A stretch of 64,000 bases of DNA from Sphingobacteriaceae bacterium (GTDB taxonomy: Bacteria; Bacillota; Sulfobacillia; Thermaerobacterales; RSA17), in contig DATGRI010000041.1 of the NCBI GenBank assembly GCA_035303785.1, positions 650-64,649 of the forward strand, read 5' to 3'. Shown in pieces: positions 26,768-39,328 of the stretch; positions within the stretch are counted from its first letter, which is position 1; each line of letters begins with the position of its first letter. Both the position numbers and the translations under genes were made by a program. A model generated the notes under the pieces. That model had not been told where the DNA came from, searched no databases, and saw only the letters and a program-made list of their open reading frames with translations.

Positions 26768-27511
26768 ATGGTAATAAGGCTGGACCGGTCGGTGCGCCGC
26801 CGTTTCACGGTGGCGGTGGTATTCCTTACGTGGCTGATCCTGGTCCGGGGCGCGGCGGAACTGTACGGCCTGACGCTGCCCGCCGCCGGCGGCCCCCAGC
26901 CCGTGCGCAGCGCCGGCACCCGGCGGCCAGCCGTAGCCTTGACCTTCAACATCACCTGGGGCGACCAGGTGCCCCCGGCCATCCTCAAGTCCCTGGCGGA
27001 GCACGGGGTGCCGGCCACCTTTTTCGTCGCCGGCCCCTGGGCGGAAGCTCATCCTGAAGTGCTGCAGGCCCTGGTGGAGGCCGGGCACGAGGTGGGCACC
27101 TCCGGCGCCCGCAATCTGGATTTAACCCAGTTTAACCCCGAAGACCTGGAAGGTGAACTCCAGGCGGCCGTAGCCGCCCTGGCCGACGCCGCCGGGGTGC
27201 GGACCCTCTATTTCCGGCCCCCCGGGGGATCCTACGACGACCGGGTTCTCCAGACGGCGGCGGAACTGGGGCTGGTCACCGTCCTGTGGGACGTGGATTC
27301 CCGGGATTGGCTCCAACCGGGACCCGAGCAGATCGCCGCCCAGGTGCTGCGCTCGGTGCAGCCTGGCAGCATTATCCTGCTTCATGCCGGCGACACCAAC
27401 ACCCAGACCGTCCGGGCCCTGCCCTCCATCATCAAGGGCCTCCGGGAGCGGGACCTGGCCATGGTCACCCTCACGGAACTGCTCCGGCCGCCGGCGGAAG
27501 AGGACCGATAA
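26768..27511 (+). CDS. polysaccharide deacetylase (NodB homology domain)
   Basis: Has an N-terminal TM segment, then ALTFNITWG, ATFFVAG, GHEVGTSG and LLHAGD. Confidence 0.85.
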   Translation: MVIRLDRSVRRRFTVAVVFLTWLILVRGAAELYGLTLPAAGGPQPVRSAGTRRPAVALTFNITWGDQVPPAILKSLAEHGVPATFFVAGPWAEAHPEVLQALVEAGHEVGTSGARNLDLTQFNPEDLEGELQAAVAALADAAGVRTLYFRPPGGSYDDRVLQTAAELGLVTVLWDVDSRDWLQPGPEQIAAQVLRSVQPGSIILLHAGDTNTQTVRALPSIIKGLRERDLAMVTLTELLRPPAEEDR

Positions 27512-28775
27512 GGTCCAGCAAGGGCAGCAGCCTCAAGGTGAGGGCGCCCATCAAGGTGCGCCCTACCGCCGGATCGGCGGTGAGCACGGGCACCGCGGCC
27601 AGAAGGTCACCCCGGTGGACGGCCCGCAGGTTCCCCACCAACTGCCCCCGGCGAACCGGCGGGGCCACGTGGGGCGGCAGGGCCAACTCCCGCCGGATGT
27701 GGGGCCACATTTCCTTGGGCGCCGTCACGTACAGGGCCTGGGCCGCCTTCACCAGCACATCGGGGCGCAGGCCGCCGGCCACGGGCAGCCGGCCCACGAT
27801 GGACCCGGCGGCGGCCAAGGGCCGGGTGTCGAAGGTTTCAAAACCCCACCGCAGCAGTTGCTCCGCTTCCCGCCAGCGGGCAGGGCTCCGCAGGAGCACG
27901 GCGATGAGCCGCCGGCCGTTCCAGCTGGCCGAGGCCACCAAGGTCCGGCCCGCCGCCGAGGTAGTGCCCGTTTTCACCCCTTCGGCGAAGTCGTAGCTCC
28001 AAAGCAGCCGGTTGGTGTTGGCCAGGATCACCTTCCTGCCCTGGACGTCGGCCACCTGGGCCTGCCGCAGGGCCACCAGCCGCCGGAACTCGGGCAGGCC
28101 CAAGGCATACCGGGTAAGCATGGCCAGATCGTAGGCGGTGGTCAAATGGCCCACCGCAGTCAGGCCGTGGGCATTGCGGAAGGTGCTGTTGACCAGGCCC
28201 AGGCGGTAGGCCCGCTCCGTCATCAAGAGGGCGAAGTCCTTTTCCGTGCCGCTGATGTGCTCGGCCAGGGCCGCGGCAGCGTCATTGCCCGAAGAAAGCA
28301 TAAGGCCGTGGAGCAAAGCCTCGACGGTATACCGGTCGCCGGCCCGCAGGCCCATACGGGAACCGGACACCGATGCGGCCCGCCGGCTGATCTCCACCAC
28401 ATCGCCGGGCCGCCCATGCTCCAAAGCCAGGAGGGCGGTCATGATTTTAGTGGTGCTGGCGGGATGGAGGCGGCGGTGCATGTTGCGCTCATACAGGACG
28501 GTCCCCGTGTGGTAGTCCACCAAGACGGCGGCGGCAGCCCGGATGGGCGGCGCCGAGCCGGCGGCTTCGGGATACCGGGCGCCCTGGGGCGGCGGCTGGG
28601 GAGGCAGCAGGGGACGCCCCACCGGCGGCCAGGCGGGCAGTCGACCCGGCACGGCCAGGACCGGCTCCGGGGAAGAATATGCCGCCACCCAGCAAAGGGC
28701 CATGGTCAAAGCCAGCAGCAAGGCTCCAAGACGCAGGTTGCCGACCTCCCCCGGGGGTCTTTCCCTTCCCCACAA
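27471..28775 (-). CDS. D-alanyl-D-alanine carboxypeptidase (peptidase S11, low-MW PBP)
   Basis: The SxxK (ASTTKIMT), SxN (SSGND) and KTG (VKTGTT) motifs are all present. The start is uncertain: the TTG at 28775 lacks an RBS, and a GGGGGAGG at about 28745 precedes CTG/TTG candidates. Confidence 0.85.
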   Translation of the reverse strand: MWGRERPPGEVGNLRLGALLLALTMALCWVAAYSSPEPVLAVPGRLPAWPPVGRPLLPPQPPPQGARYPEAAGSAPPIRAAAAVLVDYHTGTVLYERNMHRRLHPASTTKIMTALLALEHGRPGDVVEISRRAASVSGSRMGLRAGDRYTVEALLHGLMLSSGNDAAAALAEHISGTEKDFALLMTERAYRLGLVNSTFRNAHGLTAVGHLTTAYDLAMLTRYALGLPEFRRLVALRQAQVADVQGRKVILANTNRLLWSYDFAEGVKTGTTSAAGRTLVASASWNGRRLIAVLLRSPARWREAEQLLRWGFETFDTRPLAAAGSIVGRLPVAGGLRPDVLVKAAQALYVTAPKEMWPHIRRELALPPHVAPPVRRGQLVGNLRAVHRGDLLAAVPVLTADPAVGRTLMGALTLRLLPLLDLIGPLPPAAGAVP

Positions 28776-28800
28776 GGTATGGCGGCAGCCGCCGGCTTTA

Positions 28801-29799
28801 TTAATCCTGGTTCTGCATGTGTTGGTCTGGGACGGCCTCGTCCTGGATGCGGAAAATCAAGTTGCGGGGTCCCGATGCATCGTAGGCGCCCAGGGCCTGG
28901 CCGTTGGCGGTTATTTCCACCCCGGCGGGGTTGCCGGCCCACAGGCGTATTTCCCAACTGCCCTCATAGGTGCGGGTTTCGCCGGGCTCAAAGAACCATT
29001 CATATACTTTCTCGTCGTCTACCCATACTTCCGCCCAGCTCCGGTCGGAGGCGACCATTTCAATCTCCAGATGGGGGGCATCCACAGCGTAGATGATGTC
29101 CCTGCTGCCTTCCTCCACCAGGGTCACCCGGCCCTGGAGGCCGGCCTCGTCGGCCGGATCGGGGTCCAAGGGATCCCCGGCGCCGGCATCAATGTCATCC
29201 TCCGCTCCTTCCCCGGCGGGCCCGTTATCCTCTTGGGCTTCCCGGTTGCCGGCGGCGCCGTTGTCGGTCCCCTGCTCCCTTCCGGGGTCCTGTTGCACCG
29301 TCTCGGTGTCGGGTCGGATTTCCGTCTGGCCCCGCACCGTACTGATGACGTAGGCGGTGCCCACAATCATGGCCGCCACCACCAAGATGCCTACCAAGAG
29401 GGAGCCGATGCCCCGCCCCGGAATGGGCCGGGCCGCCGCCCCGCCGCCCGATCGGGGCAAGGCCGGGGCCGAACGGCGGGACCGGCCGGCGCCCCCCAGG
29501 AGGGTGGCCTTGGCTCCCTGGGGCAGGGGCGGTGCCGGCGTTTCCCCTTCGCCGCGGCTCTTCTGCCGGAACTGGCGGTAGGCCTTGGCCAGCTCCTGGC
29601 CGTCCAGGCCGAGGTGATTGGCATAGGACCGGATAAAGCCCTGGGCATAGGCTGTGGCGGGCAGGACGGAGTCATCGCCGGCTTCGATGGCCCGCAAATA
29701 CCTGATGCGGATCTTCGTAACCTTTTGGATGTCCTCGAGGGTAAGGCCCAGTTCCTGGCGCCGGCTCTGGAGGACGGCGCCTATCTCCTTCAGGTCCAC
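28801..29799 (-). CDS. rodZ: RodZ-like cytoskeleton protein (XRE HTH, TM, DUF4115)
   Basis: The N-terminal HTH reads LQSRRQELGLTLEDIQKVTKIRIRYLRAIE. It has a single TM segment and a C-terminal DUF4115-like beta domain. The GTG start follows GCGGAGGG. Confidence 0.8.
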   Translation of the reverse strand: MDLKEIGAVLQSRRQELGLTLEDIQKVTKIRIRYLRAIEAGDDSVLPATAYAQGFIRSYANHLGLDGQELAKAYRQFRQKSRGEGETPAPPLPQGAKATLLGGAGRSRRSAPALPRSGGGAAARPIPGRGIGSLLVGILVVAAMIVGTAYVISTVRGQTEIRPDTETVQQDPGREQGTDNGAAGNREAQEDNGPAGEGAEDDIDAGAGDPLDPDPADEAGLQGRVTLVEEGSRDIIYAVDAPHLEIEMVASDRSWAEVWVDDEKVYEWFFEPGETRTYEGSWEIRLWAGNPAGVEITANGQALGAYDASGPRNLIFRIQDEAVPDQHMQNQD

Positions 29800-29982
29800 C
29801 TTAAAGGCCCTCCGCTGAACCGGAGTCTTTTCCTTCCCGGCGACAGTCGCCCGTGTACCGCAGTGAACGAAATTCTTCCTATCAACTTATCGTACTACAT
29901 TATCTACCATCTGATTTCCCGCTGCTCCCCGCCGCCGGCCGGGACGGGACGGTGGGCCGGTTTCCGTGCACCGCCTCCGGGC

Positions 29983-31239
29983 TCAACGGCCCACCAGGCC
30001 GCGGATCATCAAGCGCAGGCTGTCCCACAGGACGGTGAAGAAGCCGCCCCTGGCCACATCCTCGGCCACCTCCAAGGGGACGATCACCTGCTCACCCCCG
30101 GCGGAAATGGTCAAACGGCCGACGACCGTGCCTGCCGCCAAGGGAGCCTCCAGGAAACCGGGCAGGTCGTCCTCAACGGCCATCTGGCCTGCCTCCTGGC
30201 GGGGCACCGTCACCAGGGGCCGGCGGGCGGGCCGCACCACCACCGACTTGTCCGCTCCCTTGTATACGGACAGGGTGCGGATTCCCCCTTCACCCCACGG
30301 GGGCTGGACGGTGACGAAGTTCCGGAAGCCGTAGTTGAGCAGGGCCAGGGCATCTTCCTCCCGCTGGGCGAAGCCGCCGGCCCCCAGCACCGCCGCCACC
30401 AGGGACATGTCCCCTTCCTGGGCGGTGGCCACCAGGTGGTACCCGGCGGCGCTCAAAAAGCCCGTCTTCAGGCCCGTCACCCGATCATCCCGGAACAGGA
30501 GGCCGTTGCGGTTGGTCTGGCGGATGCCGCCGTATTCGTACTCCTTGGTGGACATGTAGACCAGGCCCTCGGGATGCTCGGTGACAAAGTGGCGGGCCAG
30601 GCGGGCCATGTCCATGGCGGTGGTTTTCTGGACCCCGTTGAGGAGGCCGTGGCTGTTGGCGAAGACGGTGGCCGTCAACCCCAGCTCCTGGGCCCGCTGG
30701 TTCATGAGGTTCACAAAGGCCGATTCGCTGCCGGCCAGATGCTCCGCCACCGCCAGGGCCGAGTCGTTGCCCGACACCACGCCGATGCCGTACAGCAAGT
30801 CCTCCAGGGAAACGGTGTCGCCCACGTTCAGGAACATGCTGGAGCCCGACAGGCGCCACGCATTTTCGCTGATGATGGCCTGGTCCTGGAGGCTTGCCCG
30901 GCCCTCGGCGATGGCCTCCAAAGCCAGCACCACCGTCATGATCTTGGCCAGGCTGGCGGGGGCCAGTTCCATGGCCGGGTTCTTGGCGTACAGCACCTTC
31001 CCCGTATGGGCATCCATCAAGACGGCTGCCGCGGCGTTGACGGGGAAGGGCTGGAGATTCTCCTGCCCCGGCTCCGGGGAATCGGCGATTTGGCCCTCCT
31101 GCGGGCCTTCCGGCCCATCCTGGGCCCAGGCCGCCGGAGGAGCCCAGGGTACAGCCACGATGGCGGCCATAAGGATGAGGGCCAGCAGCCAACTAAAGAC
31201 CTTGCCGCTGTTGCGATGGGCTGGGGTGAAACGGGACAC
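29983..31239 (-). CDS. D-alanyl-D-alanine carboxypeptidase (peptidase S11, PBP5-type with C-terminal domain)
   Basis: Motifs are SLAKIMT, SGND and LKTGF. A GTG at 31239 follows GGAAAGGAAGAG. The track TTG at 31272 has no RBS. Confidence 0.85.
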   Translation of the reverse strand: MSRFTPAHRNSGKVFSWLLALILMAAIVAVPWAPPAAWAQDGPEGPQEGQIADSPEPGQENLQPFPVNAAAAVLMDAHTGKVLYAKNPAMELAPASLAKIMTVVLALEAIAEGRASLQDQAIISENAWRLSGSSMFLNVGDTVSLEDLLYGIGVVSGNDSALAVAEHLAGSESAFVNLMNQRAQELGLTATVFANSHGLLNGVQKTTAMDMARLARHFVTEHPEGLVYMSTKEYEYGGIRQTNRNGLLFRDDRVTGLKTGFLSAAGYHLVATAQEGDMSLVAAVLGAGGFAQREEDALALLNYGFRNFVTVQPPWGEGGIRTLSVYKGADKSVVVRPARRPLVTVPRQEAGQMAVEDDLPGFLEAPLAAGTVVGRLTISAGGEQVIVPLEVAEDVARGGFFTVLWDSLRLMIRGLVGR

Positions 31240-31315
31240 GGGCTGCTCTTCCTTTCCAGAACAGGCTTGCAAAATGGGCTAATCCGCCCCGGGGGCCCCA
31301 CGCCGGGCCGGTGGG

Positions 31316-32872
31316 CTACCCTTCAGGCCGCGGCCGGTGGCGCCGGGCCAGTTCCTGGCCCACGGCGGCGGGATCGATGCCCTGGTAAGCCAGCAAAACC
31401 AGGCTGTGGAACCACAAGTCGGCCATCTCGGCCACCAATTCGTCCCGCTGCTCCGCCACGATGACTTCGATGGCCTCTTCCCCTACCTTGCGGCGCATGA
31501 GGGGGCTGCCCCCCTCGGCCAGCCGCACCACATAGGACCCTTCCGGCCGCTGGGCCAGCCGGTCCAGGATGGTCCCGTACAGGCGGGCCAGTTCCTGGGG
31601 CCAGTCGCTGCCGGGTGGGGGCCCCTCCCCCGCCGGGCCGGCCCCGGCCTGCCCCGGGGCCCCCTGCCCCGAGACAGATTGCCCCGCGGCCGCCGGCCGG
31701 CCCTCCCGGTAAAAGCAGGAGGCGGCGCCGGTATGGCACACGGGCCCGCTGCCGCTGACCACCGCCATGACGGTGTCGTCGTCGCAGTCGGGGATCAGCC
31801 GGTGCACCCGGTGCAGGTAGCCCGAGGTCTCCCCCTTCATCCACAGGCGCCGGCGGCTGCGGCTCCAAAACCAGAGGACGCCGGTGGTAAGGCACAAGGT
31901 CAAGGCTTCCCGGTCGGCCCAGCCCAGCATCAGGGGCGGGCCCCCCGGCTCTCCTCCAGGCCCGGCCGGAACCACCACCACAGGGACCAAGCCCCTGTCG
32001 TCAAAGCGCAGGCCGTTCAGCCAGGTCAAATCCACCGGCAGCGGCGGCGGCTCGTTGATGGGTATGCCCGCCGCCTGCAAATAAGCCTTGGCCGCCCGCA
32101 AGGGCAGTCGATCCTGGTGGAAGATGGACGCCGCCAGCACCGCCCCGGCCCCGGCCCCCACGGCCGCCCGCAGGTGGTCGGCGGTGCCGGCGCCCCCCGA
32201 GGCGATGATGGGCACGCCGAGGGGAGTCGTGGCTGCGGCGGCCGCCTGGATGAGGGGCAGGTCGAAGCCCTGGGCCGTGCCGTCCCGGTCGATGCTGGTC
32301 AGCAGGATCTCGCCGGCGCCCAGTTCCGCCGCCCGGCGGCACCAGGCCACGGCATCCAGGCCTGTGGGCTGTCGCCCTCCCCGGGTGTAGACTTCCCAGC
32401 CCGATTCAGTTTCGCCGGCTTGGACGGCCTTGGCGTCCACCGCCACCACCAGCCGCTCCCGCCCGAACCGCCGGGCGGCGGCGGCGATGAGGTCGGGATC
32501 GGCCACGGCGGCGCTGCTGATGATCACCTTGGCGGCTCCGGCCTCCAGCAGCCGGGCCATGTGGTCCAGTTCCCGCAGGCCCCCGCCCACGCCCAAGGGC
32601 GCCGGCAGCTGGGGAGCCAATTCCCGGACAACAGCCAAGGTGGCATCCCTGGAGGCCTCGGTGCCGGCGATGTCCAGCAGCACGATCTCGTCGGCGCCGT
32701 TCTGGGCGTGGCGCTGGGCCAGGGCCACGGGATCCCCCTGATCCCGCAGGTCCTGGAACTGGACCCCCTTCACCACCCGCCCATCTTTCATGTCCAGGCA
32801 GGCCACAATGCGGGCGGCGGGGCGCCCGTCCTTTTCAGGGCCGCCTCGGGCCGCGGCAGGGCGGTCGGTCAT
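31316..32872 (-). CDS. hisFIE: trifunctional fusion: imidazole glycerol phosphate synthase cyclase subunit HisF, phosphoribosyl-AMP cyclohydrolase HisI and phosphoribosyl-ATP pyrophosphatase HisE
   Basis: This is one uninterrupted 518-aa ORF. The HisF part reads RIVACLDMKDGRVVKGVQFQDLRDQGDP...IIASGGAG. The HisI part reads WMKGETSGYLHRVHRLIPDCDDDTVMAVV..GPVCHTGAASCFY. A Gly/Pro/Ala linker follows, then the HisE part: YVVRLAEGG...KVGEEAIEVIVA...EMADLWFHSLVLL. The start forms an ATGA overlap with the hisA stop. Confidence 0.9.
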   Translation of the reverse strand: MTDRPAAARGGPEKDGRPAARIVACLDMKDGRVVKGVQFQDLRDQGDPVALAQRHAQNGADEIVLLDIAGTEASRDATLAVVRELAPQLPAPLGVGGGLRELDHMARLLEAGAAKVIISSAAVADPDLIAAAARRFGRERLVVAVDAKAVQAGETESGWEVYTRGGRQPTGLDAVAWCRRAAELGAGEILLTSIDRDGTAQGFDLPLIQAAAAATTPLGVPIIASGGAGTADHLRAAVGAGAGAVLAASIFHQDRLPLRAAKAYLQAAGIPINEPPPLPVDLTWLNGLRFDDRGLVPVVVVPAGPGGEPGGPPLMLGWADREALTLCLTTGVLWFWSRSRRRLWMKGETSGYLHRVHRLIPDCDDDTVMAVVSGSGPVCHTGAASCFYREGRPAAAGQSVSGQGAPGQAGAGPAGEGPPPGSDWPQELARLYGTILDRLAQRPEGSYVVRLAEGGSPLMRRKVGEEAIEVIVAEQRDELVAEMADLWFHSLVLLAYQGIDPAAVGQELARRHRPRPEG

Positions 32873-33600
32873 GGGCCGTCATCTCCCCCGGCGGCCGCCG
32901 CCACCAGGTCGGGCAGCCGCACCTTTTCCTCATATAGGGCCCGGCCCACCACGATGCCCTGGAGCCACTTGCCCCCAGCCCGGCGCAGCCGGTGCACATC
33001 GTCCACCGACGTAATGCCGCCGGCCCACAGGAAGGGCACTTCCCAGGCGGCGCACCGGCGGGCCGTTTCCTCGGCGGCGCCGGCCATGGTCCCATCCCGG
33101 CTGGTATCGGTCACCAGGAGGCAGGCCACCCCGGCGTCCTGCAGGCGCCGGGCCAACTGGGCGGGGTCGTCCTCGGTGGTCTCCTGCCAGCCGTGGCTGG
33201 CGGGCCTGCCGTCTTTCAAATCCACGGCGGCCATCACCCGGCCCGGGTAGCGGGCCGCCAGAGGCGCCACGGCCTCGGGATTTTTCACTGCCAAAGTGCC
33301 GATAATGACCCACTGGACCACCTGCAGGGCTTCCTCTGCGGCCTCCAAGTCCCGCAGGCCGCCCCCGTATTGGATGGGCAGGCCTGTGGCCTGAGCGATT
33401 TCCCTTGCTGTGTCCAGGTGGACCGGACGGCCGGCAAAGGCCCCGTCCAAGTCCACCACGTGGAGCCGGCGGGCCCCTTCCGCCTGCCAGCGCCGGGCGG
33501 CCGCTACGGGATCACCGTACTGGAACGTTTGATCGGGATCCCCTTGCAGCAAGCGGACGGCCCCCCCTTGCCGCAGGTCGATGGCGGGAATGACCTCCAT
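32869..33600 (-). CDS. hisA: ProFAR isomerase HisA
   Basis: Begins MEVIPAIDLRQGGAVRLLQGD and continues with HVVDLDGA and GGGLR. The RBS is GGAAGGAG. Confidence 0.93.
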   Translation of the reverse strand: MEVIPAIDLRQGGAVRLLQGDPDQTFQYGDPVAAARRWQAEGARRLHVVDLDGAFAGRPVHLDTAREIAQATGLPIQYGGGLRDLEAAEEALQVVQWVIIGTLAVKNPEAVAPLAARYPGRVMAAVDLKDGRPASHGWQETTEDDPAQLARRLQDAGVACLLVTDTSRDGTMAGAAEETARRCAAWEVPFLWAGGITSVDDVHRLRRAGGKWLQGIVVGRALYEEKVRLPDLVAAAAGGDDGP

Positions 33601-33642
33601 GCCCCTGACCAGCTCCTTCCCTGCTGCAAATTAGATGGCGTT

Positions 33643-34269
33643 TCAGTCCCACAGGGTTCCCTTGGTGGAAGGAATGGCGCTTCCTTTAACTGCCGTCGCC
33701 TGCCCCAGGGCCAGGCCCAAGGCCTTGTAGGCGGCCTCCAGAATGTGGTGGGCGTCGCGGCCTGCCAGCACGTGGATGTGCAGGGTCAGGCCGCCGCCCC
33801 GGGCCAGGCCCCACAGCCACTCGGGCAACATGTCGGTATGGAAGCCGCCGGGCGCCCGGTCGGGCAGGGGTTGGCCGTGGACCTCGGCGTAGGGGCGGCC
33901 GGAGATGTCCACCGCCGCCAGCACCAGGGCGTCATCCATGGGCGCCGCCGCCGAACCGTACCGGGCCATGCCCCGGCCCACGCCCAGGGCGTCCTTCAAG
34001 GCCCGGCCCAAGGTGATGCCTACATCTTCCACCGTGTGGTGGATGTCCACCTCGATGTCGCCCTTGGCCTTCACCTGCAGGTCCCAGCGGGCGGTGGAGG
34101 CCAGGGCCGTCAGCATGTGATCCAAAAAGGGCACGCCGGTGTCCACCTGGGCCTCGGGCATGCGGTCGCCGGGGGTGTCCAGCACCACCGTCACTTCCAC
34201 CTGAGTCTCCTTGGTCGCGCGGGATGCACTGCCCTTGCGGGGCTCCCCGCTGCCTCGTGAAGCGTTCAT
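33643..34269 (-). CDS. hisB: imidazoleglycerol-phosphate dehydratase HisB
   Basis: Contains TKETQVEVTVVLD, GVPFLDHML and HHTVEDVGITLG. The ATG at 34269 lies 4 nt after the hisC stop, with RBS GGGGGAGGGA. The track start at 34407 was trimmed. Confidence 0.93.
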   Translation of the reverse strand: MNASRGSGEPRKGSASRATKETQVEVTVVLDTPGDRMPEAQVDTGVPFLDHMLTALASTARWDLQVKAKGDIEVDIHHTVEDVGITLGRALKDALGVGRGMARYGSAAAPMDDALVLAAVDISGRPYAEVHGQPLPDRAPGGFHTDMLPEWLWGLARGGGLTLHIHVLAGRDAHHILEAAYKALGLALGQATAVKGSAIPSTKGTLWD

Positions 34270-34273
34270 ATAG

Positions 34274-35308
34274 TCACATTCCCTCCCCCAAGGCTGCCGG
34301 CGCCGCCTCCTGCAGGGCGGCGACGCAGGCCTCCATCTCCTCGGCCGTGCCGATGGATACCCGCAAGCAGTCGCTGATGATGGGATCGTCGGCATAAGTG
34401 CGCACAAAAATCTCCTGCCGGGCCAGGGCGCCGGCCAGAGCCGCGGCGGCCGCCGGGCCTCCCCGGACCTGGAACAAGATGAAGTTGGCCTGGCTGGGAA
34501 AAGGCCGGATGCCGTCTATCGCCTCCAGTTGCCGGAAGACTTCCTCCCGGCGCCGGGCTATTTCCTGGGCCTCCGCCTCCAGCCGGGGCAGGTGGCGGAG
34601 CACCACCCGGGCGGCCGTCAGGGCGGCGTTTGCAACAGCAAACGGCGGTGATGCCTCCAGGGCCAGTTGGCGCCACGGCTCGGGAATGACGCCGTAACCG
34701 CACCGCAGCCCCGCCAGGCCCAATGCCTTGGAGAAAGTCCGGAGCAAAGCCACGTCGCTGCGCCCCACCATCCACTGGGTTATGGGATCGCCGCCGTATT
34801 CGATGTAGGCCTCGTCCACCATGATCAAGGATCCCGCCGGCAGGGCGGCGGCCAGTTCCTCCACCTGCTCCACCGCAGGCACGTCGCCCACCGGGTTGTG
34901 GGGCCGGCACAAGAAGACCAGGGACGGCCGGTCGGCGGCGGCCAGCAGGTCCGCCACGGGGAGGGACCCTTCCTCCAGGTTGATGGGCACCTTCCGGATG
35001 GGGAGCCGGGCCTTTTCAGCCGCCCAGTCGTAGACGCTGAAGTTGGGCGTGGGAATCAAGGCCTGCTCCACCCGGCGGGCGGCGCCGGTGGTGATGATCT
35101 CGATGGCGCCGTCGCCCCCGTTGGTGATGGCGATGTCTTCCTTGGGAAAGCCGTAGATGCGGGCCAGGTCTTCCCGCAGGGCGTCGGTGACGGCTTCGTC
35201 GTACCGGTGCAGCTCCAGCCCGGCCCAGGCGGCGCGGATCTCCGCCATGATGTCTTCCGGGAGGGGCGCGTGGCGCTCATTTTGGTTCAGCAGCATGGCT
35301 TTCTTCAT
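34274..35308 (-). CDS. hisC: histidinol-phosphate aminotransferase HisC
   Basis: It has class-II aminotransferase features (LNQNE, RTFSKALGLAGLRCGY). The start forms an ATGA overlap with the hisD stop. Confidence 0.9.
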   Translation of the reverse strand: MKKAMLLNQNERHAPLPEDIMAEIRAAWAGLELHRYDEAVTDALREDLARIYGFPKEDIAITNGGDGAIEIITTGAARRVEQALIPTPNFSVYDWAAEKARLPIRKVPINLEEGSLPVADLLAAADRPSLVFLCRPHNPVGDVPAVEQVEELAAALPAGSLIMVDEAYIEYGGDPITQWMVGRSDVALLRTFSKALGLAGLRCGYGVIPEPWRQLALEASPPFAVANAALTAARVVLRHLPRLEAEAQEIARRREEVFRQLEAIDGIRPFPSQANFILFQVRGGPAAAAALAGALARQEIFVRTYADDPIISDCLRVSIGTAEEMEACVAALQEAAPAALGEGM

Positions 35309-36744
35309 CCTTCCCCGCCTCCCCGGCCCTTTCCCGTGGCCTCCCCGGCGTCACGGCCGGGGCCGGTCCCGCTGTCACCCTCAGGGACCAGGGCCGAGAG
35401 GCGGGCCGTCAAGGAATCGGCGTGGGCCCGGAGGCCTTCCCGCCGGGCCAGGTGGGCGGCGGCCTCCCCGGCCGCGGCCAGGGCCGTGGCACTGCCGGCG
35501 AACACGCTGCCGGCCCGCAGGAAGGTGGCCACCGTCAGCCCGGCGGCGTACCTGGCGGTGCCCCCCGTGGGCAGGATGTGGTTGGGGCCGGCGGCGTAGT
35601 CGCCGAAAGCCACCGGCGCCCAGGGACCCAGGTACACGGCGCCGGCATGCTGCACCAGGGGCAGCAGATCCCAAGGCTTGTCCACATAGAGATGGAGATG
35701 CTCAGGCCCCATAGCGTTGGCCAGATCCACCCCTTGGGCCAGGTCGCCGTTGACGACGGCGGCGCCCCGGGCCAGGGACTGGGCCAGCACCCCGGCATCG
35801 GGGCTGCCCTCCTCCTCCAGCCGGGCCAGCTTTTTGCGCAATTGGTCGCGCACCGCCGTGACCAGCCGGCTGCTGGTGGTCAGCAAGACCACCACCGAGT
35901 CGGGGCCGTGCTCCCCTTGGGCCGCCAGGTCGGCGGCCACCCAGGCGGGGTCGGCGGTGTCGTCGGCGACCACGGCGATCTCGCTGGGCCCCATGAGCCC
36001 GTCGATGCCCACCTGTCCGTAAACCAAGGCCTTGGCGGCGGTGACGTAGGCGTTGCCGGGGCCCACCACCAGGTCGCAACGGGGCACGCTGGCGGTACCG
36101 TAGGCCAGGGCGGCGATGGCCTGGGCGCCCCCCACCTTGACCACCAGCCGGGCTCCCACCAGGTGGGCCGCCCCCAGGATCAAGGGGTCCACGGTGCCGT
36201 CGGGCCTGGGCGGCGTGGCCAGCACTACCTCGGGTACCCCCGCCACCCGGGCCGGAATGCCGGCCATGATCACGGTGGACGGGTAGGGATGCCGCCCGCC
36301 GGGCACATAAATGCCCGCCCGGGCCACAGGCCGCATCATCTGGCCCCACCAGCCCCCGTCGGGGGCGGGCTCCATCCAGCTGCGGGGCCGGGAGCGGCGG
36401 TGATACTCTTCGATGCGGGCCGCCGCCGTCTGGAGGGCCGCCTTGTCGGCGGCGGGCAGGAGGTCCCAGGCGGCCGCCGTTTCTTCTTTTGTAATGAACA
36501 GCCGGTCCAGGCGGACGCCGTCAAACTTCTCCGTCAGTTCCAGCAGGGCCCGGTCGCCGGCTTCCCGCACCTGCCGGATGATCCGGGCGGCCTGCTCCAC
36601 CACCGCCGGGGGCAGGCCGGCAGGCCCCGTTTCGTCGCCGGGGTCGGCCTGGGGCCCGAAGCGGCGTCGGAATTCCTCAGGGGTGCAAAGGGGCAGCAGA
36701 TCGTCCTGCTGCCAATCCGTCGCTTCTGGCTGCAGGGTGCTCAT
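35305..36744 (-). CDS. hisD: histidinol dehydrogenase HisD
   Basis: Contains GIYVPGG..YPSTVIM, VGPGNAYV, GPSE and EHL. The ATG at 36744 forms an ATGA overlap with the hisG stop. The track ORF is over-extended to 37140. Confidence 0.93.
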   Translation of the reverse strand: MSTLQPEATDWQQDDLLPLCTPEEFRRRFGPQADPGDETGPAGLPPAVVEQAARIIRQVREAGDRALLELTEKFDGVRLDRLFITKEETAAAWDLLPAADKAALQTAAARIEEYHRRSRPRSWMEPAPDGGWWGQMMRPVARAGIYVPGGRHPYPSTVIMAGIPARVAGVPEVVLATPPRPDGTVDPLILGAAHLVGARLVVKVGGAQAIAALAYGTASVPRCDLVVGPGNAYVTAAKALVYGQVGIDGLMGPSEIAVVADDTADPAWVAADLAAQGEHGPDSVVVLLTTSSRLVTAVRDQLRKKLARLEEEGSPDAGVLAQSLARGAAVVNGDLAQGVDLANAMGPEHLHLYVDKPWDLLPLVQHAGAVYLGPWAPVAFGDYAAGPNHILPTGGTARYAAGLTVATFLRAGSVFAGSATALAAAGEAAAHLARREGLRAHADSLTARLSALVPEGDSGTGPGRDAGEATGKGRGGGEG

Positions 36745-37442
36745 TTCTCCTCCGCCCTCCCTCGCCGGGCAGCCACCTGGCGGCCCGCTTCCCGGAGCCG
36801 TTCCACCAGGGGCCACAACTGCCTGGACGTGGTGGCCCGCAAGGCGGCGGCGTTGCCGATGAGGCGGGTGGTGATGGCCGCGATTTCTGCCACTTCCACC
36901 AGGCCGTGGCGCTTCAAAGTGCCGCCCGTTTCCACGATGTCCACCACCCCGTCGGCCAGGCCCAAGGCAGGGGCGATTTCCACCGAGCCCCGCAGGGGGA
37001 TGATGGTCACCGCCCGGCCCAGGCTTTGAAAGTAAGCCCGGGCAATGTTGGGCAGGCCGGTGGCGATGCGCAGGGGGCCCCGCCCCGGCGCCAGCAAGTC
37101 GGCGGCGTCCCCGGCGGGGGCGGCCAAGGAGATGCGGCATTGGCCGATGGACAGGTCGGCCAGTTCCTGCACATCGGGCCCGGGATCCCGCTCCATCAGC
37201 ACGTCCTTGCCCGTCAGGCCCAGCTGGGCCACCCCGGCGGCCACATAGGTCAGCACGTCGGCGCTGCGCACGATCAGCACCCGGGGCCCGCCCGGCTGCT
37301 GGGGCTCCACCAGGAGCAGGTCCTTAGGGGGGTCCCCTTCCACCAGCCCCGCTCCCCGCAGCACCTCCCAGGCCGGGGCCAGCATGCGGCCCTTGGCTAC
37401 GGCGATGGTCAGGGGCCGCTCGCCGTTCTTACTGGCCAGCAT
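36741..37442 (-). CDS. hisG: ATP phosphoribosyltransferase, short (HisZ-dependent) form
   Basis: Contains LTIAVAKGRM and the short-form length of 233 aa. The RBS is GGGGAGG. There is a 14-nt overlap with the hisZ 3' end. Confidence 0.9.
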   Translation of the reverse strand: MLASKNGERPLTIAVAKGRMLAPAWEVLRGAGLVEGDPPKDLLLVEPQQPGGPRVLIVRSADVLTYVAAGVAQLGLTGKDVLMERDPGPDVQELADLSIGQCRISLAAPAGDAADLLAPGRGPLRIATGLPNIARAYFQSLGRAVTIIPLRGSVEIAPALGLADGVVDIVETGGTLKRHGLVEVAEIAAITTRLIGNAAALRATTSRQLWPLVERLREAGRQVAARRGRAEEK

Positions 37443-38772
37443 CGGTCATGACCTCCCCAGCCTGGCCCCGGATCCGGCCGGCCGCCGGGGGCGGGGCCGG
37501 GTGGTCCATCAGACTGCGCAAGACCCGCCGGCCCAAGGGAGAGCCGGGCTCCACCTGATGCAGGCCTTTTTCGTCGGCAACAATTACTTTTATAGAAACC
37601 TCAGAGGCGCCTGCCGCCGTGCCGGGTGCGGCCTCCCCTTCCGGGGCCGCCTCTTCACCCAACTCGTCACCGGTCAAAGGCAGCAGCACTGCGCTTCGAC
37701 CCTTAGCCCGGAGGCGGGCCGCCTCCTCCCAGGCCCGGCGCAGCACCGGCCCTTCCCCTCGGGCCGCCACCACGTAGTCGGGTCCGCCCGGCAGCCGGTC
37801 GCCGGCGGCCTGGGTGAGAATGTCCAAATCCAAGGCGAAGCCGGCCGCCGCCACGGGAGTGTCGAAGGCCCTGAACAGGCTGTCGTAGCGGCCGCCGCCG
37901 GCTACCACCTCGTCACCCCCGGCCCCGGCAGCCACCACCTGAAACACGAAGCCGTCGTAGTAGCCCAGATCCCGCAGCAGGCCCAGGTCCACCAGGGGAG
38001 CCGGGCCGCCGGCCAAGGCGGTCACTTCCTCCAGGTGGGCCAGGATCGCCGTCACTTCATCTTTTTCCGGGCCGGCGGGGATGCGGGCCAGGCGCTCCCC
38101 CACTTCCGCCAGGGAGCCCCGGAAGGTGAGCCAGCCCCACACCTCTTCCGACAGGGGCGATTTCACGGTGGTGTTGAGGATCATCTCCAAGGTGACGAAG
38201 TCGCCCCGGGCCAAGGTCTGGACCAGGCGGTCGGCAAGGGCCTCGGCGCCGGCGTCGACATCGTCCGCATCGTCCACGCCGGCGGTCCGGGCAGCCAGGG
38301 CGGCGATGGCCCGGGCGATGCCCACATGGTTGATGATCACCGTGGCCTCCAGCCCCGGCACCGCCTGCAGGGACTCCCAGGCGGTGGCCAGCACTTCGGC
38401 GTCGCCCGCCGGGCCGGAGACGCCCAGGAGTTCCGCGCCCACCTGCCGCAGGCGCCGCCACGGCCCGCCCATGGACCGGTACACTTCGGTCTCGTAAGCA
38501 ACCCGCACGGGTTTGGAGCGGGGCCAGGTGCCCTCCAGCCACAAGGTCAACACGCCCAGGGTGGCGTCGGGCAGCAGCAGGCGTACATCCCCGTCGGGGC
38601 CGATGAACTTGCAGCCTTCCCCGGCGAACCGGTGCAGCGCCGGGCGCAGTTCCTCGTAATCCAGCCACGGGGGCAGGGCCTGCTCCTCGTAGCCCCAGCG
38701 CTGCAATACCTGCAGGACCGAGCGGGCCAATTCCCGCCGGGCCCGCGGCACAGATGTCGTAGGCGACCACAT
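37429..38772 (-). CDS. hisZ: ATP phosphoribosyltransferase regulatory subunit HisZ (HisRS paralog)
   Basis: It has a class-II aaRS-like core (LPDATLGV, YYDGFVF, GGGRYD) and sits first in the his operon. The RBS is GGAAGG. Confidence 0.85.
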   Translation of the reverse strand: MWSPTTSVPRARRELARSVLQVLQRWGYEEQALPPWLDYEELRPALHRFAGEGCKFIGPDGDVRLLLPDATLGVLTLWLEGTWPRSKPVRVAYETEVYRSMGGPWRRLRQVGAELLGVSGPAGDAEVLATAWESLQAVPGLEATVIINHVGIARAIAALAARTAGVDDADDVDAGAEALADRLVQTLARGDFVTLEMILNTTVKSPLSEEVWGWLTFRGSLAEVGERLARIPAGPEKDEVTAILAHLEEVTALAGGPAPLVDLGLLRDLGYYDGFVFQVVAAGAGGDEVVAGGGRYDSLFRAFDTPVAAAGFALDLDILTQAAGDRLPGGPDYVVAARGEGPVLRRAWEEAARLRAKGRSAVLLPLTGDELGEEAAPEGEAAPGTAAGASEVSIKVIVADEKGLHQVEPGSPLGRRVLRSLMDHPAPPPAAGRIRGQAGEVMTDAGQ

Positions 38773-38947: not shown

Positions 38948-39328
38948 TCAGGAGGAATCGCCGGGGCTGCCGGCCCCATCCAAATCGCCGGAGGCATCGG
39001 AATCAGCAGGGTCGCCGGCCCCCTGGGCCTGCTTATCCCGCTCCGCCAGGCGCTCCAGGACCATGACGTAGCCGTCGGCGCCGTACTCCAGGAAGCGGCG
39101 GATCCGGCTGACGGTGGCGCTGCTCATCCCCGTGGCCCCTTGAATCTCCTCGTAGGTGGCGCCGGCCGCCAGCATTTCCGCCGCCCGCAGCCGGTGGGCC
39201 ATGGTGCGGATCTCGCCGATGGTGCACAGGTCATAAAAAAAACGGTAGCACTCCTCCCGGTCCCGCAGGCCCAGGATGGCGTCAAAAAGCCGGTCCACCG
39301 CCGGGCTTCTCAGCCGTTCATATGCCAT
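38948..39328 (-). CDS. yerC: TrpR-family YerC/YecD-like DNA-binding protein (candidate histidine-operon repressor HisR)
   Basis: The sequence LFDAILGLRDREECYRFFYDLCTIGEIRTMAHRLRAAEMLAAGATYEEIQGATGMSSATVSRIRRFLEYG is the YerC/YecD signature. The gene lies immediately upstream of hisZ. Confidence 0.8.
   Translation of the reverse strand: MAYERLRSPAVDRLFDAILGLRDREECYRFFYDLCTIGEIRTMAHRLRAAEMLAAGATYEEIQGATGMSSATVSRIRRFLEYGADGYVMVLERLAERDKQAQGAGDPADSDASGDLDGAGSPGDSS

What the first reader, a model, noticed from the sequence alone, without database searches (positions are those of the whole stretch)
31316..32872. HisF-HisI-HisE encoded as a single 518-aa polypeptide
A single uninterrupted ORF carries three enzymes: a complete HisF cyclase barrel, a HisI cyclohydrolase and, after a Gly/Pro/Ala-rich linker, a HisE pyrophosphatase. 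HisI-HisE fusions are common. Attaching that pair to the C-terminus of HisF is, to my knowledge, unusual. The fusion would physically join pathway steps 2, 3 and 5.
Basis: partly seen in the sequence, partly recalled or inferred. Interest (0 to 1): 0.55.

Follow-up and report, generated by a model that had tools for sequence, protein, structure and literature searches.

The report
Fused HisF-HisIE enzyme without HisH
One real gene joins three histidine-pathway enzymes, a rare fusion that is already in public databases; more interesting is that its operon lacks the usual glutaminase partner gene hisH and the enzyme has lost the residues that dock that partner, so it may use free ammonia instead.

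Summary
ORF 31316-32872 (minus strand, 518 aa) encodes complete HisF, HisI and HisE domains with all catalytic residues, as the last gene of a hisZ-G-D-C-B-A-[FIE] operon.

It is not an artefact. The identical gene was assembled on 9 contigs from at least 7 different samples, and an 84%-identical ortholog keeps the frame under purifying selection.

The fusion is uncommon. None of 80 sampled GTDB species loci has it, and about 19 clusters among the 150 best-scoring 50%-identity representatives do. It is not new: the exact protein is GenBank HLS89030.1, and the architecture occurs in cultured Limnochorda pilosa and Xylanivirga thermophila and in more than 100 other 90%-identity clusters. A 2024 paper mentions it for Archaea.

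The unexpected part is hisH. It is absent from the operon and from at least 72 kb around it. The HisF domain has lost the conserved HisH-docking residues (D98A, Q123E, R249N, T78G) but keeps the catalytic and ammonia-gate residues. Across the loci examined, a non-acidic residue 98 goes with a hisH-less operon in 11 of 11 cases. Asp98 loci carry hisH in 67 of 80 cases, and three A98 cases and one D98 control were predicted in advance.

The most likely reading (about 55%) is a glutaminase-independent, ammonia-using IGP synthase. Whole-genome absence of hisH could not be checked.

The parts
31316..32872 (-). hisF-hisI-hisE fused ORF, 518 aa, including the TAG stop
32813..32872 (-). N-terminal extension (aa 1-20), about 16 residues longer than in homologs and predicted disordered; the ATG overlaps the hisA stop (ATGA at 32869-32872)
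32057..32812 (-). HisF cyclase (beta-alpha)8 barrel, aa 21-272. Catalytic D27/D146 (Tm D11/D130) and gate residues R21/E62/K115/E188 are kept. The HisH-docking positions are changed: G94 (Tm T78), A114 (D98), E144 (Q123), R145 (A124) and N at Tm R249
32003..32056 (-). HisF-HisI linker, aa 273-290, conserved in the ortholog (9 identical codons, 6 synonymous changes, 3 amino-acid changes)
31697..32002 (-). HisI PRA-CH domain, aa 291-392, with metal ligands D362 C363 D364 D366 C379 H380 C386. It contains a short lineage-specific Gly/Pro insert at aa 302-313 (31934-31969)
31589..31696 (-). Gly/Pro/Ala-rich disordered HisI-HisE linker, aa 393-428; it differs from the ortholog only by substitutions and in-frame indels
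31331..31588 (-). HisE PRA-PH (MazG-like) domain, aa 429-514, with E465 E466 E469 E482 D485
32869..33600 (-). hisA (ProFAR isomerase), translationally coupled to the fused gene
33601..33642 (-). 42-nt hisB-hisA intergenic gap: the canonical hisH slot, empty here
33643..34269 (-). hisB (IGP dehydratase; 208-aa gene call)
34274..35308 (-). hisC (histidinol-phosphate aminotransferase)
35305..36744 (-). hisD (histidinol dehydrogenase; 479-aa gene call; the 611-aa ORF is over-extended)
36741..37442 (-). hisG (short-form ATP phosphoribosyltransferase)
37429..38772 (-). hisZ (HisRS-like regulatory subunit)

Best explanation
This is a genuine trifunctional histidine-biosynthesis protein, made by in-frame fusion of the neighbouring genes hisF and hisIE. 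It is the last cistron of a hisZ-hisG-hisD-hisC-hisB-hisA-[hisF-I-E] operon in a high-GC Bacillota bacterium related to Thermaerobacter and Limnochorda. The HisE domain hydrolyses PR-ATP (step 2), the HisI domain opens the purine ring of PR-AMP (step 3), the separate HisA isomerises ProFAR (step 4), and the HisF barrel converts PRFAR plus ammonia to IGP and AICAR (step 5). HisA acts between the fused activities, so the fusion cannot channel a substrate directly. It most plausibly fixes stoichiometry and co-localisation; some relatives fuse HisA as well. By analogy with dimeric HisI/HisE enzymes (from memory), it probably also builds a dimer. These functional steps are inferred. What the data show directly is that the HisF domain is an unusual subtype. 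The operon has no hisH. The conserved HisH-docking and allosteric residues are replaced (T78G, D98A, Q123E, R249N, plus a recurrent Arg124). The catalytic residues and the R5/E46/K99/E167 ammonia gate are intact. My inference, at about 55%, is that this IGP synthase works without a glutaminase subunit and takes up free ammonia directly, as C. glutamicum HisF appears to do in vivo.
For: Domains and residues; fold TM 0.92-0.95 to HisF structures 1THF/1GPW; PDB sequence matches to HisF and HisIE. The gene is real: the identical 518-aa gene with the same operon is on 9 contigs from at least 7 different samples, it is in GenBank, and the 84% ortholog shows synonymous changes well above amino-acid changes in every domain and in the HisF-HisI linker, with only in-frame indels in the HisI-HisE linker. 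The family is fused: 106 of the homologs retrieved are HisF-HisI-HisE, 4 are HisA-HisF-HisI-HisE and 17 are HisF-HisI. No hisH: an HMM built from 66 hisH genes finds nothing in the 64-kb window with filters off, nothing in L001, and no GATase gene in the next 8 kb of the contig. Docking residues: their roles are given. The substitutions were mapped. In an unbiased scan, only 6 of 81 highly conserved columns collapse in the Ala98 group (Tm positions 49, 78, 98, 103, 123, 249). Correlation: 11 of 11 loci with Ala or Ser at residue 98 lack hisH, and 9 of them have hisB directly followed by hisA. In contrast, 67 of 80 Asp98 loci have hisH (Fisher p = 5e-8). Three Ala98 cases and one Asp98 control were predicted before they were looked up. 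Controls: 13 of 13 Asp98 loci whose hisH is merely not adjacent keep T-D-Q-R, and 30 of 30 representatives with a covalently fused HisH have an acidic residue 98. Precedent for ammonia-dependent HisF in vivo: C. glutamicum and Klebsiella hisH mutants on high ammonium.
Against: Whole-genome absence of hisH was not tested. A relocated, co-evolved HisH therefore remains possible. The ammonia-gate residues are retained, which also fits continued use of a partner. The Ala/Ser98 loci are not all phylogenetically independent, and the neighbour-joining tree behind the estimate of about 5 origins is crude. The recurrent E123-R124 signature could mark one coherent subfamily rather than repeated loss. 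NCBIfam equivalog cut-offs are narrowly missed for hisF (282.1 against 294.55) and HisIE (172.8 against 187). No expression or activity data exist. Internal initiation producing a separate HisIE cannot be excluded.
Confidence: 0.75

Rival explanations
1. hisH is encoded elsewhere in the genome, and its product still pairs with this HisF domain through a co-evolved interface. The enzyme would then be an ordinary glutamine-dependent IGP synthase with a remodelled docking surface.
For: The ammonia-gate residues R5/E46/K99/E167 are intact. In 13 of 78 Asp98 GTDB loci, hisH is not adjacent to hisF, so relocation does happen. The recurrent E123-R124 pattern could be a new, conserved interface. Whole genomes could not be checked.
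Against: When hisH is simply not adjacent, the docking residues stay T-D-Q-R (13 of 13). Within the window's own clade the docking positions vary freely: E/R/R at 123, N/K/K at 249 and G/G/T at 78 among sequences at 54-84% identity. That looks like relaxed constraint rather than a new conserved interface. In 9 loci hisH is missing exactly from its slot in otherwise complete, compact operons.
Confidence: 0.33
2. The fusion is a sequencing or assembly artefact: a lost stop codon or a frameshift between hisF and hisIE.
For: In many species hisF and hisIE are adjacent and sometimes in the same frame, separated by a single stop codon. One base error could therefore mimic a fusion.
Against: The identical 518-aa product is on 9 independently assembled contigs from at least 7 different samples. 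The 84% ortholog and more than 100 more distant clusters share the architecture. Purifying selection and in-frame indels run through both linkers.
Confidence: 0.01
3. The barrel is not the histidine cyclase but a HisF paralog of the WbuZ / AglZ-HisF2 type, used for glycan amidation.
For: NCBIfam also matches WbuZ (217 bits) and AglZ_HisF2 (181 bits), and the hisF equivalog cut-off is narrowly missed. Such paralogs exist as hisF2/hisH2 pairs.
Against: hisF is the best model at 282 bits. The gene lies in a complete his operon that has no other hisF. All HisF catalytic and phosphate-site residues are kept. WbuZ-type paralogs pair with a HisH-like WbuY, which is absent here.
Confidence: 0.03
4. 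The long ORF also, or mainly, yields a separate HisIE protein by internal translation initiation near the junction, so the functional unit is not the 55-kDa chain. This does not exclude the main explanation.
For: In-frame GTG/TTG codons occur at aa 258-300, one with an SD-like upstream sequence. E. coli has an internal promoter for hisIE.
Against: No in-frame ATG lies at the junction. The HisF-HisI linker is conserved at the protein level in the ortholog. The fused frame is maintained across distant lineages.
Confidence: 0.1

Closest known systems
HisF-HisI-HisE proteins of Limnochorda pilosa (P0010, AP014924.1) and Xylanivirga thermophila (WP_129724450.1)
   Same: Same three-domain order in one chain, as the last gene of the his operon after hisA.
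   Different: L. pilosa is only about 44-47% identical. It keeps Asp98, Gln123 and Arg249 and has hisH between hisB and hisA. The window protein has lost all of these. Neither protein has been characterised, and databases call them just 'HisF'.
Bifunctional HisIE (E. coli/Shigella type, PDB 6J2L/6J22; plant HISN2, 7BGM)
   Same: HisI followed by HisE in one chain, with the same catalytic motifs.
   Different: Those have no N-terminal HisF barrel. The window's HisI-HisE linker is about 35 residues and disordered, and the NF002747 cut-off is narrowly missed.
HisHF / yeast HIS7 (PDB 1JVN) and fungal HIS4 (HisI-HisE-HisD)
   Same: Multi-enzyme his fusions that involve the cyclase or the HisIE pair. 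They are listed among the classical his fusions.
   Different: HIS7 fuses the glutaminase to the N-terminus of HisF. Here the glutaminase is missing altogether and HisIE is attached at the C-terminus. HIS4 contains HisD and no HisF.
Archaeal 'HisA/F fusions with HisIE' (cluster 787.1 in PMC11237513)
   Same: The same kind of architecture, noted in four metagenomic assemblies.
   Different: Archaeal (DPANN and unclassified), mentioned in one sentence, with no analysis of HisH dependence.
Corynebacterium glutamicum HisF (ammonia-dependent in vivo) and Klebsiella hisH mutants rescued by ammonium
   Same: A functional precedent: the HisF step can run without HisH.
   Different: Those organisms still encode hisH. 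Here the gene is absent from the operon and the docking residues are lost, which points to a permanent rather than conditional independence.

Membership tests
HisF, IGP synthase cyclase subunit (PF00977 / TIGR00735) | (beta-alpha)8 barrel of the His_biosynth family | tested here: met
   Pfam E 1e-70 with full profile coverage. AlphaFold model pLDDT 86.7. Foldseek TM 0.92-0.95 normalised to 1THF, 1GPW_A and 4EVZ.
HisF, IGP synthase cyclase subunit (PF00977 / TIGR00735) | Catalytic Asp11 and Asp130, plus Lys19 and Asp176 (T. maritima numbering) | tested here: met
   D27, D146 and K35 are invariant in alignment A1. D11, K19, D130 and D176 are present in the mapping.
HisF, IGP synthase cyclase subunit (PF00977 / TIGR00735) | Ammonia gate R5/E46/K99/E167 | tested here: met
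   All four are present. Their role is given.
HisF, IGP synthase cyclase subunit (PF00977 / TIGR00735) | HisH-docking and allosteric residues T78, D98, Q123, R249 | tested here: not met
   G, A, E and N in the window. These positions are 95-100% conserved in 190 Asp98 sequences. Roles are given.
HisF, IGP synthase cyclase subunit (PF00977 / TIGR00735) | A hisH glutaminase partner gene (heterodimeric HisFH) | tested here: inconclusive
   Absent from the operon, the 64-kb window and 8 kb beyond it.
HisF, IGP synthase cyclase subunit (PF00977 / TIGR00735) | NCBIfam equivalog trusted cut-off | tested here: not met
   282.1 bits against 294.55. It is the best-scoring model, and the margin is small.
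HisI, PR-AMP cyclohydrolase (PF01502) | PRA-CH domain above the gathering score, with metal-binding D-C-D-x-D and C-H...C residues | tested here: met
   93.5 bits against 27, profile 1-74 of 74. D362 C363 D364 D366 C379 H380 C386 are invariant.
HisE, PR-ATP pyrophosphohydrolase (PF01503 / TIGR03188) | MazG-like helical domain with EExxE...ExxD motifs, above the cut-offs | tested here: met
   Pfam 59.4 bits against 21.3. TIGR03188 79.6 bits against 42.7. E465 E466 E469 E482 D485 are invariant.
Bifunctional HisIE (NF002747) | Equivalog cut-off over the joined HisI and HisE domains | tested here: not met
   172.8 bits against 187. The shortfall is plausibly caused by the long linker and the Gly/Pro insert.
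Fused HisF-HisI-HisE architecture | One stop-free ORF carrying the three domains, conserved in orthologs | tested here: met
Fused HisF-HisI-HisE architecture | Full-length protein made, with three enzyme activities | not testable with these tools
   Needs proteomics and enzymology.

The most novel reading that the evidence does not exclude
This gene belongs to a recurrent, previously undescribed HisF subtype marked by Ala or Ser at position 98, loss of Gln123 and Arg249, and often Glu123-Arg124. The subtype has dispensed with the HisH glutaminase. It would be a naturally glutaminase-independent, ammonia-using IGP synthase, found in several bacterial lineages whose his operons lack hisH. It occurs as a stand-alone HisF and also fused as HisA-HisF or HisF-HisIE.
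Probability: 0.5. Interest if true: 0.7.

Novelty: new variant of a known kind. Interest (0 to 1): 0.45.

Why it matters
The fusion alone matters little. It adds one more, under-annotated, entry to the list of his gene fusions; GenBank names this protein only after its smallest domain. Together with the four- and five-domain relatives, it shows that adjacent his genes fuse repeatedly.

The hisH-less signature matters more. HisF/HisH is a textbook model for ammonia channelling and long-range allostery. Natural HisF lineages that have shed the glutaminase and its docking residues would give that field evolutionary 'knock-outs' to study. They would also show that the ammonia-dependent reaction, seen so far in vitro and in mutants, is a physiological solution. 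That bears on the old proposal that a simpler, HisH-free pathway is viable. It would also correct metabolic reconstructions that score such genomes as histidine auxotrophs because hisH is missing.

Tried and rejected
They rested on recalled sequences, so I replaced them with an HMM built from 66 hisH genes in the fetched loci.
It returned no fused genes, so it works only as a rough sample (0 of 80), not a census. Its roughly 2.1-kb 'matches' were hisA+hisF+hisIE, partly read through single in-frame stops.
- A HisH protein search with the L. pilosa sequence could not be tied to the window organism, because HisH is 52-59% identical across many phyla.
It did supply 119 unfused controls and one more Ala98 case, P0275.
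- Literature searches for names such as hisFIE or hisFI returned OCR noise and operon names, not fusions.
- An Rfam scan of the whole window gave no hits. The only terminator-like site lies inside the coding region.
- The neighbour-joining trees suggest that fused proteins and Ala98 proteins each fall into several clades. I do not rely on them for the number of origins.
- I considered and rejected a sequencing artefact and a WbuZ/HisF2-type paralog (see the rival explanations).
Full report
**1. Observation**

One search lists one uninterrupted ORF at 31316..32872 on the minus strand (ATG start, 518 aa). Pfam finds three complete domains:

| Domain | Residues | E-value |
|---|---|---|
| His_biosynth | 21-255 | 1e-70 |
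| PRA-CH | 315-388 | 7e-27 |
| PRA-PH | 429-512 | 5e-16 |

NCBIfam ranks hisF first for the barrel (282 bits). It also finds HisIE/HisI/HisE models for the C-terminal half. An alignment of 26 fused homologs shows every key catalytic residue invariant:
- HisF: Asp27 and Asp146 (T. maritima D11/D130) and Lys35.
- HisI: D362-C363-D364-x-D366 and C379-H380...C386.
- HisE: E465-E466-x-x-E469 and E482...D485.

An AlphaFold model (pLDDT 86.7) gives three folded domains, with a disordered N-terminus and a disordered 388-420 linker. The barrel superposes on HisF structures at TM 0.92-0.95. PDB sequence matches are HisF for aa 19-272 and HisIE for aa 294-388.

**2. Not an artefact**

- The only possible start codon upstream of the essential Asp27 is the ATG at 32872, which overlaps the hisA stop as ATGA.
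- The identical 518-aa product, in the same operon, is on 9 independently assembled contigs from at least 7 different samples. It is also in GenBank as HLS89030.1.
- An 84%-identical ortholog (P0001/L001) has the same architecture.
- Codon comparison with that ortholog shows synonymous changes far above amino-acid changes: HisF 59 to 31, the HisF-HisI linker 6 to 3, HisI 24 to 9, HisE 15 to 8.
- The HisI-HisE linker differs only by substitutions and in-frame indels. The continuous frame is therefore under selection.

**3. How common and how well catalogued**

The first homology search returned 120 clusters at 90% identity. Nearly all carry PF00977+PF01502+PF01503. My own domain HMMs classify the retrieved proteins as follows:

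| Architecture | Proteins |
|---|---|
| HisF-HisI-HisE | 106 |
| HisA-HisF-HisI-HisE | 4 |
| HisF-HisI | 17 |

Named members include cultured Limnochorda pilosa and Xylanivirga thermophila, Bacillota MAGs and a Thermoanaerobaculia MAG. The window's sister cluster, P0006, carries the labels 'Bacillota bacterium' and 'Thermaerobacter sp.'.

A full HMMER pass over 1.84 billion 50%-identity representatives found 1,160 proteins at E ≤ 1e-30. Among the best 150, about 19 carry HisF+HisI+HisE in one chain and 9 more carry HisF+HisI or HisF+HisE. The 19 include HisH-HisF-HisI-HisE and a five-domain HisH-HisA-HisF-HisI-HisE.

A capped sample of GTDB species genomes gave 0 of 80 fused. All of them keep hisF and hisI(E) as separate neighbours.

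The classical survey of his fusions lists only hisA/F, hisIE, hisHF, hisNB and hisIED (PMC1963479). A 2024 paper mentions HisA/F-HisIE fusions in four archaeal assemblies (PMC11237513).

So the fusion is genuinely uncommon. It is also shared across this clade and already present in databases, though under-annotated: GenBank calls this protein only 'phosphoribosyl-ATP diphosphatase'.

**4. Context and the missing partner**

The operon is hisZ-hisG-hisD-hisC-hisB-hisA-[hisF-I-E]. It is preceded by a TrpR-family gene and followed by a D,D-carboxypeptidase gene.

hisH normally sits between hisB and hisA. Here that slot is a 42-nt gap. An HMM built from 66 hisH genes in the fetched loci finds nothing in the whole 64-kb window with filters off. 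The next 8 kb of the 82-kb source contig has no amidotransferase gene either. The ortholog L001 has the same hisH-less operon. L. pilosa has hisB-hisH-hisA-hisFIE.

**5. An eroded HisH-docking surface**

I mapped the barrel onto T. maritima numbering.
- Kept: the catalytic residues (D11, K19, D130, D176) and the ammonia gate (R5, E46, K99, E167; role).
- Changed: T78→G, D98→A, Q123→E and R249→N.

D98 forms the conserved salt bridge to HisH K181 and contacts HisH N12 in the active state. R249 makes the cation-pi contact with HisH W123. T78 is listed among the conserved allosteric residues.

In an unbiased scan, 81 HisF columns are at least 90% conserved in 190 Asp98 sequences. Only six of these collapse in the Ala98 group: Tm positions 49, 78, 98, 103, 123 and 249. 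There is also a recurrent gain of Arg at position 124, in 7 of 10 sequences against 1% elsewhere.

**6. Correlation, prediction and controls**

Every locus whose HisF has Ala or Ser at position 98 lacks hisH:
- the window and L001;
- P0007 (hisZ-G-A-FIE) and P0008 (hisC-B-A-FIE);
- Hydrogenispora L052 (hisZ-G-D-B-A-F-IE, with an unfused hisF) and Oscillospiraceae L006;
- the Ser98 loci P0029 and P0041.

After forming the hypothesis, I predicted that P0275, P0036 and P0108 (Ala98) would lack hisH. P0275 is an unfused HisF from a Gram-negative genomic context. I also predicted that the Asp98 sister P0006, which sits in a syntenic neighbourhood, would have hisH. All four predictions held, and the HisH HMM verified them.

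The totals are 11 of 11 non-acidic loci without hisH, against 67 of 80 Asp98 loci with it (Fisher p = 5e-8).

Three controls support the link:
- The 13 Asp98 loci whose hisH is simply not adjacent all keep T-D-Q-R. Relocation alone does not erode the surface.
- The six closest relatives of L006 have hisB-hisH-hisA and Asp98.
- All 30 representative clusters with a covalently fused HisH have an acidic residue 98.

**7. Mechanism**

Shown: the protein carries three intact active sites for steps 2 (HisE), 3 (HisI) and 5 (HisF).

Inferred:
- HisA (step 4) intervenes, so the fusion cannot channel a substrate directly. It more likely fixes stoichiometry and proximity. The relatives that also fuse HisA fit that reading.
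- HisI and HisE are dimeric enzymes (from memory), so a dimer with two barrels is likely.
- For the nitrogen source, the most economical reading is that the barrel takes up free ammonia without a glutaminase.

HisF does this in vitro. C. glutamicum tolerates a hisH deletion, and its HisF complements an E. coli hisH mutant (PMC3896937). Klebsiella hisH mutants are rescued by high ammonium (PMC5919458).

I put this reading at about 55%. The main rival, at about one third, is a HisH encoded elsewhere with a co-evolved interface. I could not check whole genomes.

**8. Comparison, novelty, verdict**

The gene is a member of the HisF, HisI and HisE families by fold, profile and catalytic residues. 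It fails the HisH-docking feature of canonical HisF and narrowly misses two NCBIfam equivalog cut-offs. The fusion itself is already catalogued. I found no description of the hisH-less, docking-eroded HisF subtype in the searchable literature, and I rate it a new variant of a known kind.

Caveats:
- Sample sizes are small and the samples are partly related.
- The neighbour-joining trees are crude.
I checked it against the expected residues and the PDB alignment ranges.
- There is no genome-wide hisH check and no biochemistry.

Noticed in passing
P0009, P0011, P0023, P0108, P0406 (HisA-HisF-HisI-HisE); P0407 (933 aa, HisH-HisA-HisF-HisI-HisE); P0440 (873 aa, HisH-HisF-HisI-HisE): Even larger his fusions exist in metagenomes. 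Chains of four and five domains cover steps 2-5 of the pathway, and some include the glutaminase.
   Followed up: partly
L102:2540-6539 (context of P0041); also L101:624-1982: In this hisH-less lineage the operon is compacted further. HisZ-HisG appear as one 558-aa protein and HisD-HisC as one 773-aa protein, followed by hisB, hisA and hisFIE.
   Followed up: no
window 38948-39328 (minus strand): A TrpR-family (PF01371) gene sits directly upstream of hisZ. The same arrangement occurs in L001, L083 and L102. It may be a HisR-type repressor of the his operon (from memory). No Rfam leader or T-box was found anywhere in the window.
   Followed up: partly
window 31316-32872; GenBank HLS89030.1: The public record names the 518-aa protein only 'phosphoribosyl-ATP diphosphatase', after its smallest domain. 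It assigns the MAG to Sphingobacteriaceae. That conflicts with the 70% GC content, the sortase/SpaA pilin, BshC and RodZ genes on the contig, and the nearest relatives, which are Thermaerobacter- and Limnochorda-like.
   Followed up: partly
HisF domain, window aa 145 (T. maritima position 124): Arg replaces the usual Cys/Ala at position 124 in 7 of 10 Ala/Ser98 sequences, against about 1% of the others. It often appears as an E123-R124 pair. This is a gained signature of the hisH-less subtype, not only relaxed constraint.
   Followed up: partly
L003-L012 and other GTDB loci: In many species hisF and hisIE are in the same reading frame, separated by a single stop codon. One point mutation, or readthrough, would create the fusion. 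The high frequency in my list is partly a tblastn ranking bias.
   Followed up: no
L051:5950-7458 (Thermoanaerobaculia MAG OY970284.1): HisA and HisF are encoded in one ORF, with hisIE overlapping in another frame. This is a long-read MAG, so a frameshift error is possible.
   Followed up: no
window 31934-31969 (aa 302-313): There is a short Gly/Pro-rich insert (PAGPGGEPGGPP) in the first strand-loop of the HisI domain. Only the 84% ortholog shares it. An N-terminal extension of about 16 residues is likewise specific to this lineage.
   Followed up: no
window 27384-37140, both strands: Many long spurious ORFs (up to 973 aa) overlap the real genes on the opposite strand or in other frames, as expected at 70% GC. 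The 611-aa hisD ORF and the 254-aa hisB ORF are over-extended relative to the gene calls (479 aa and 185-208 aa).
   Followed up: yes
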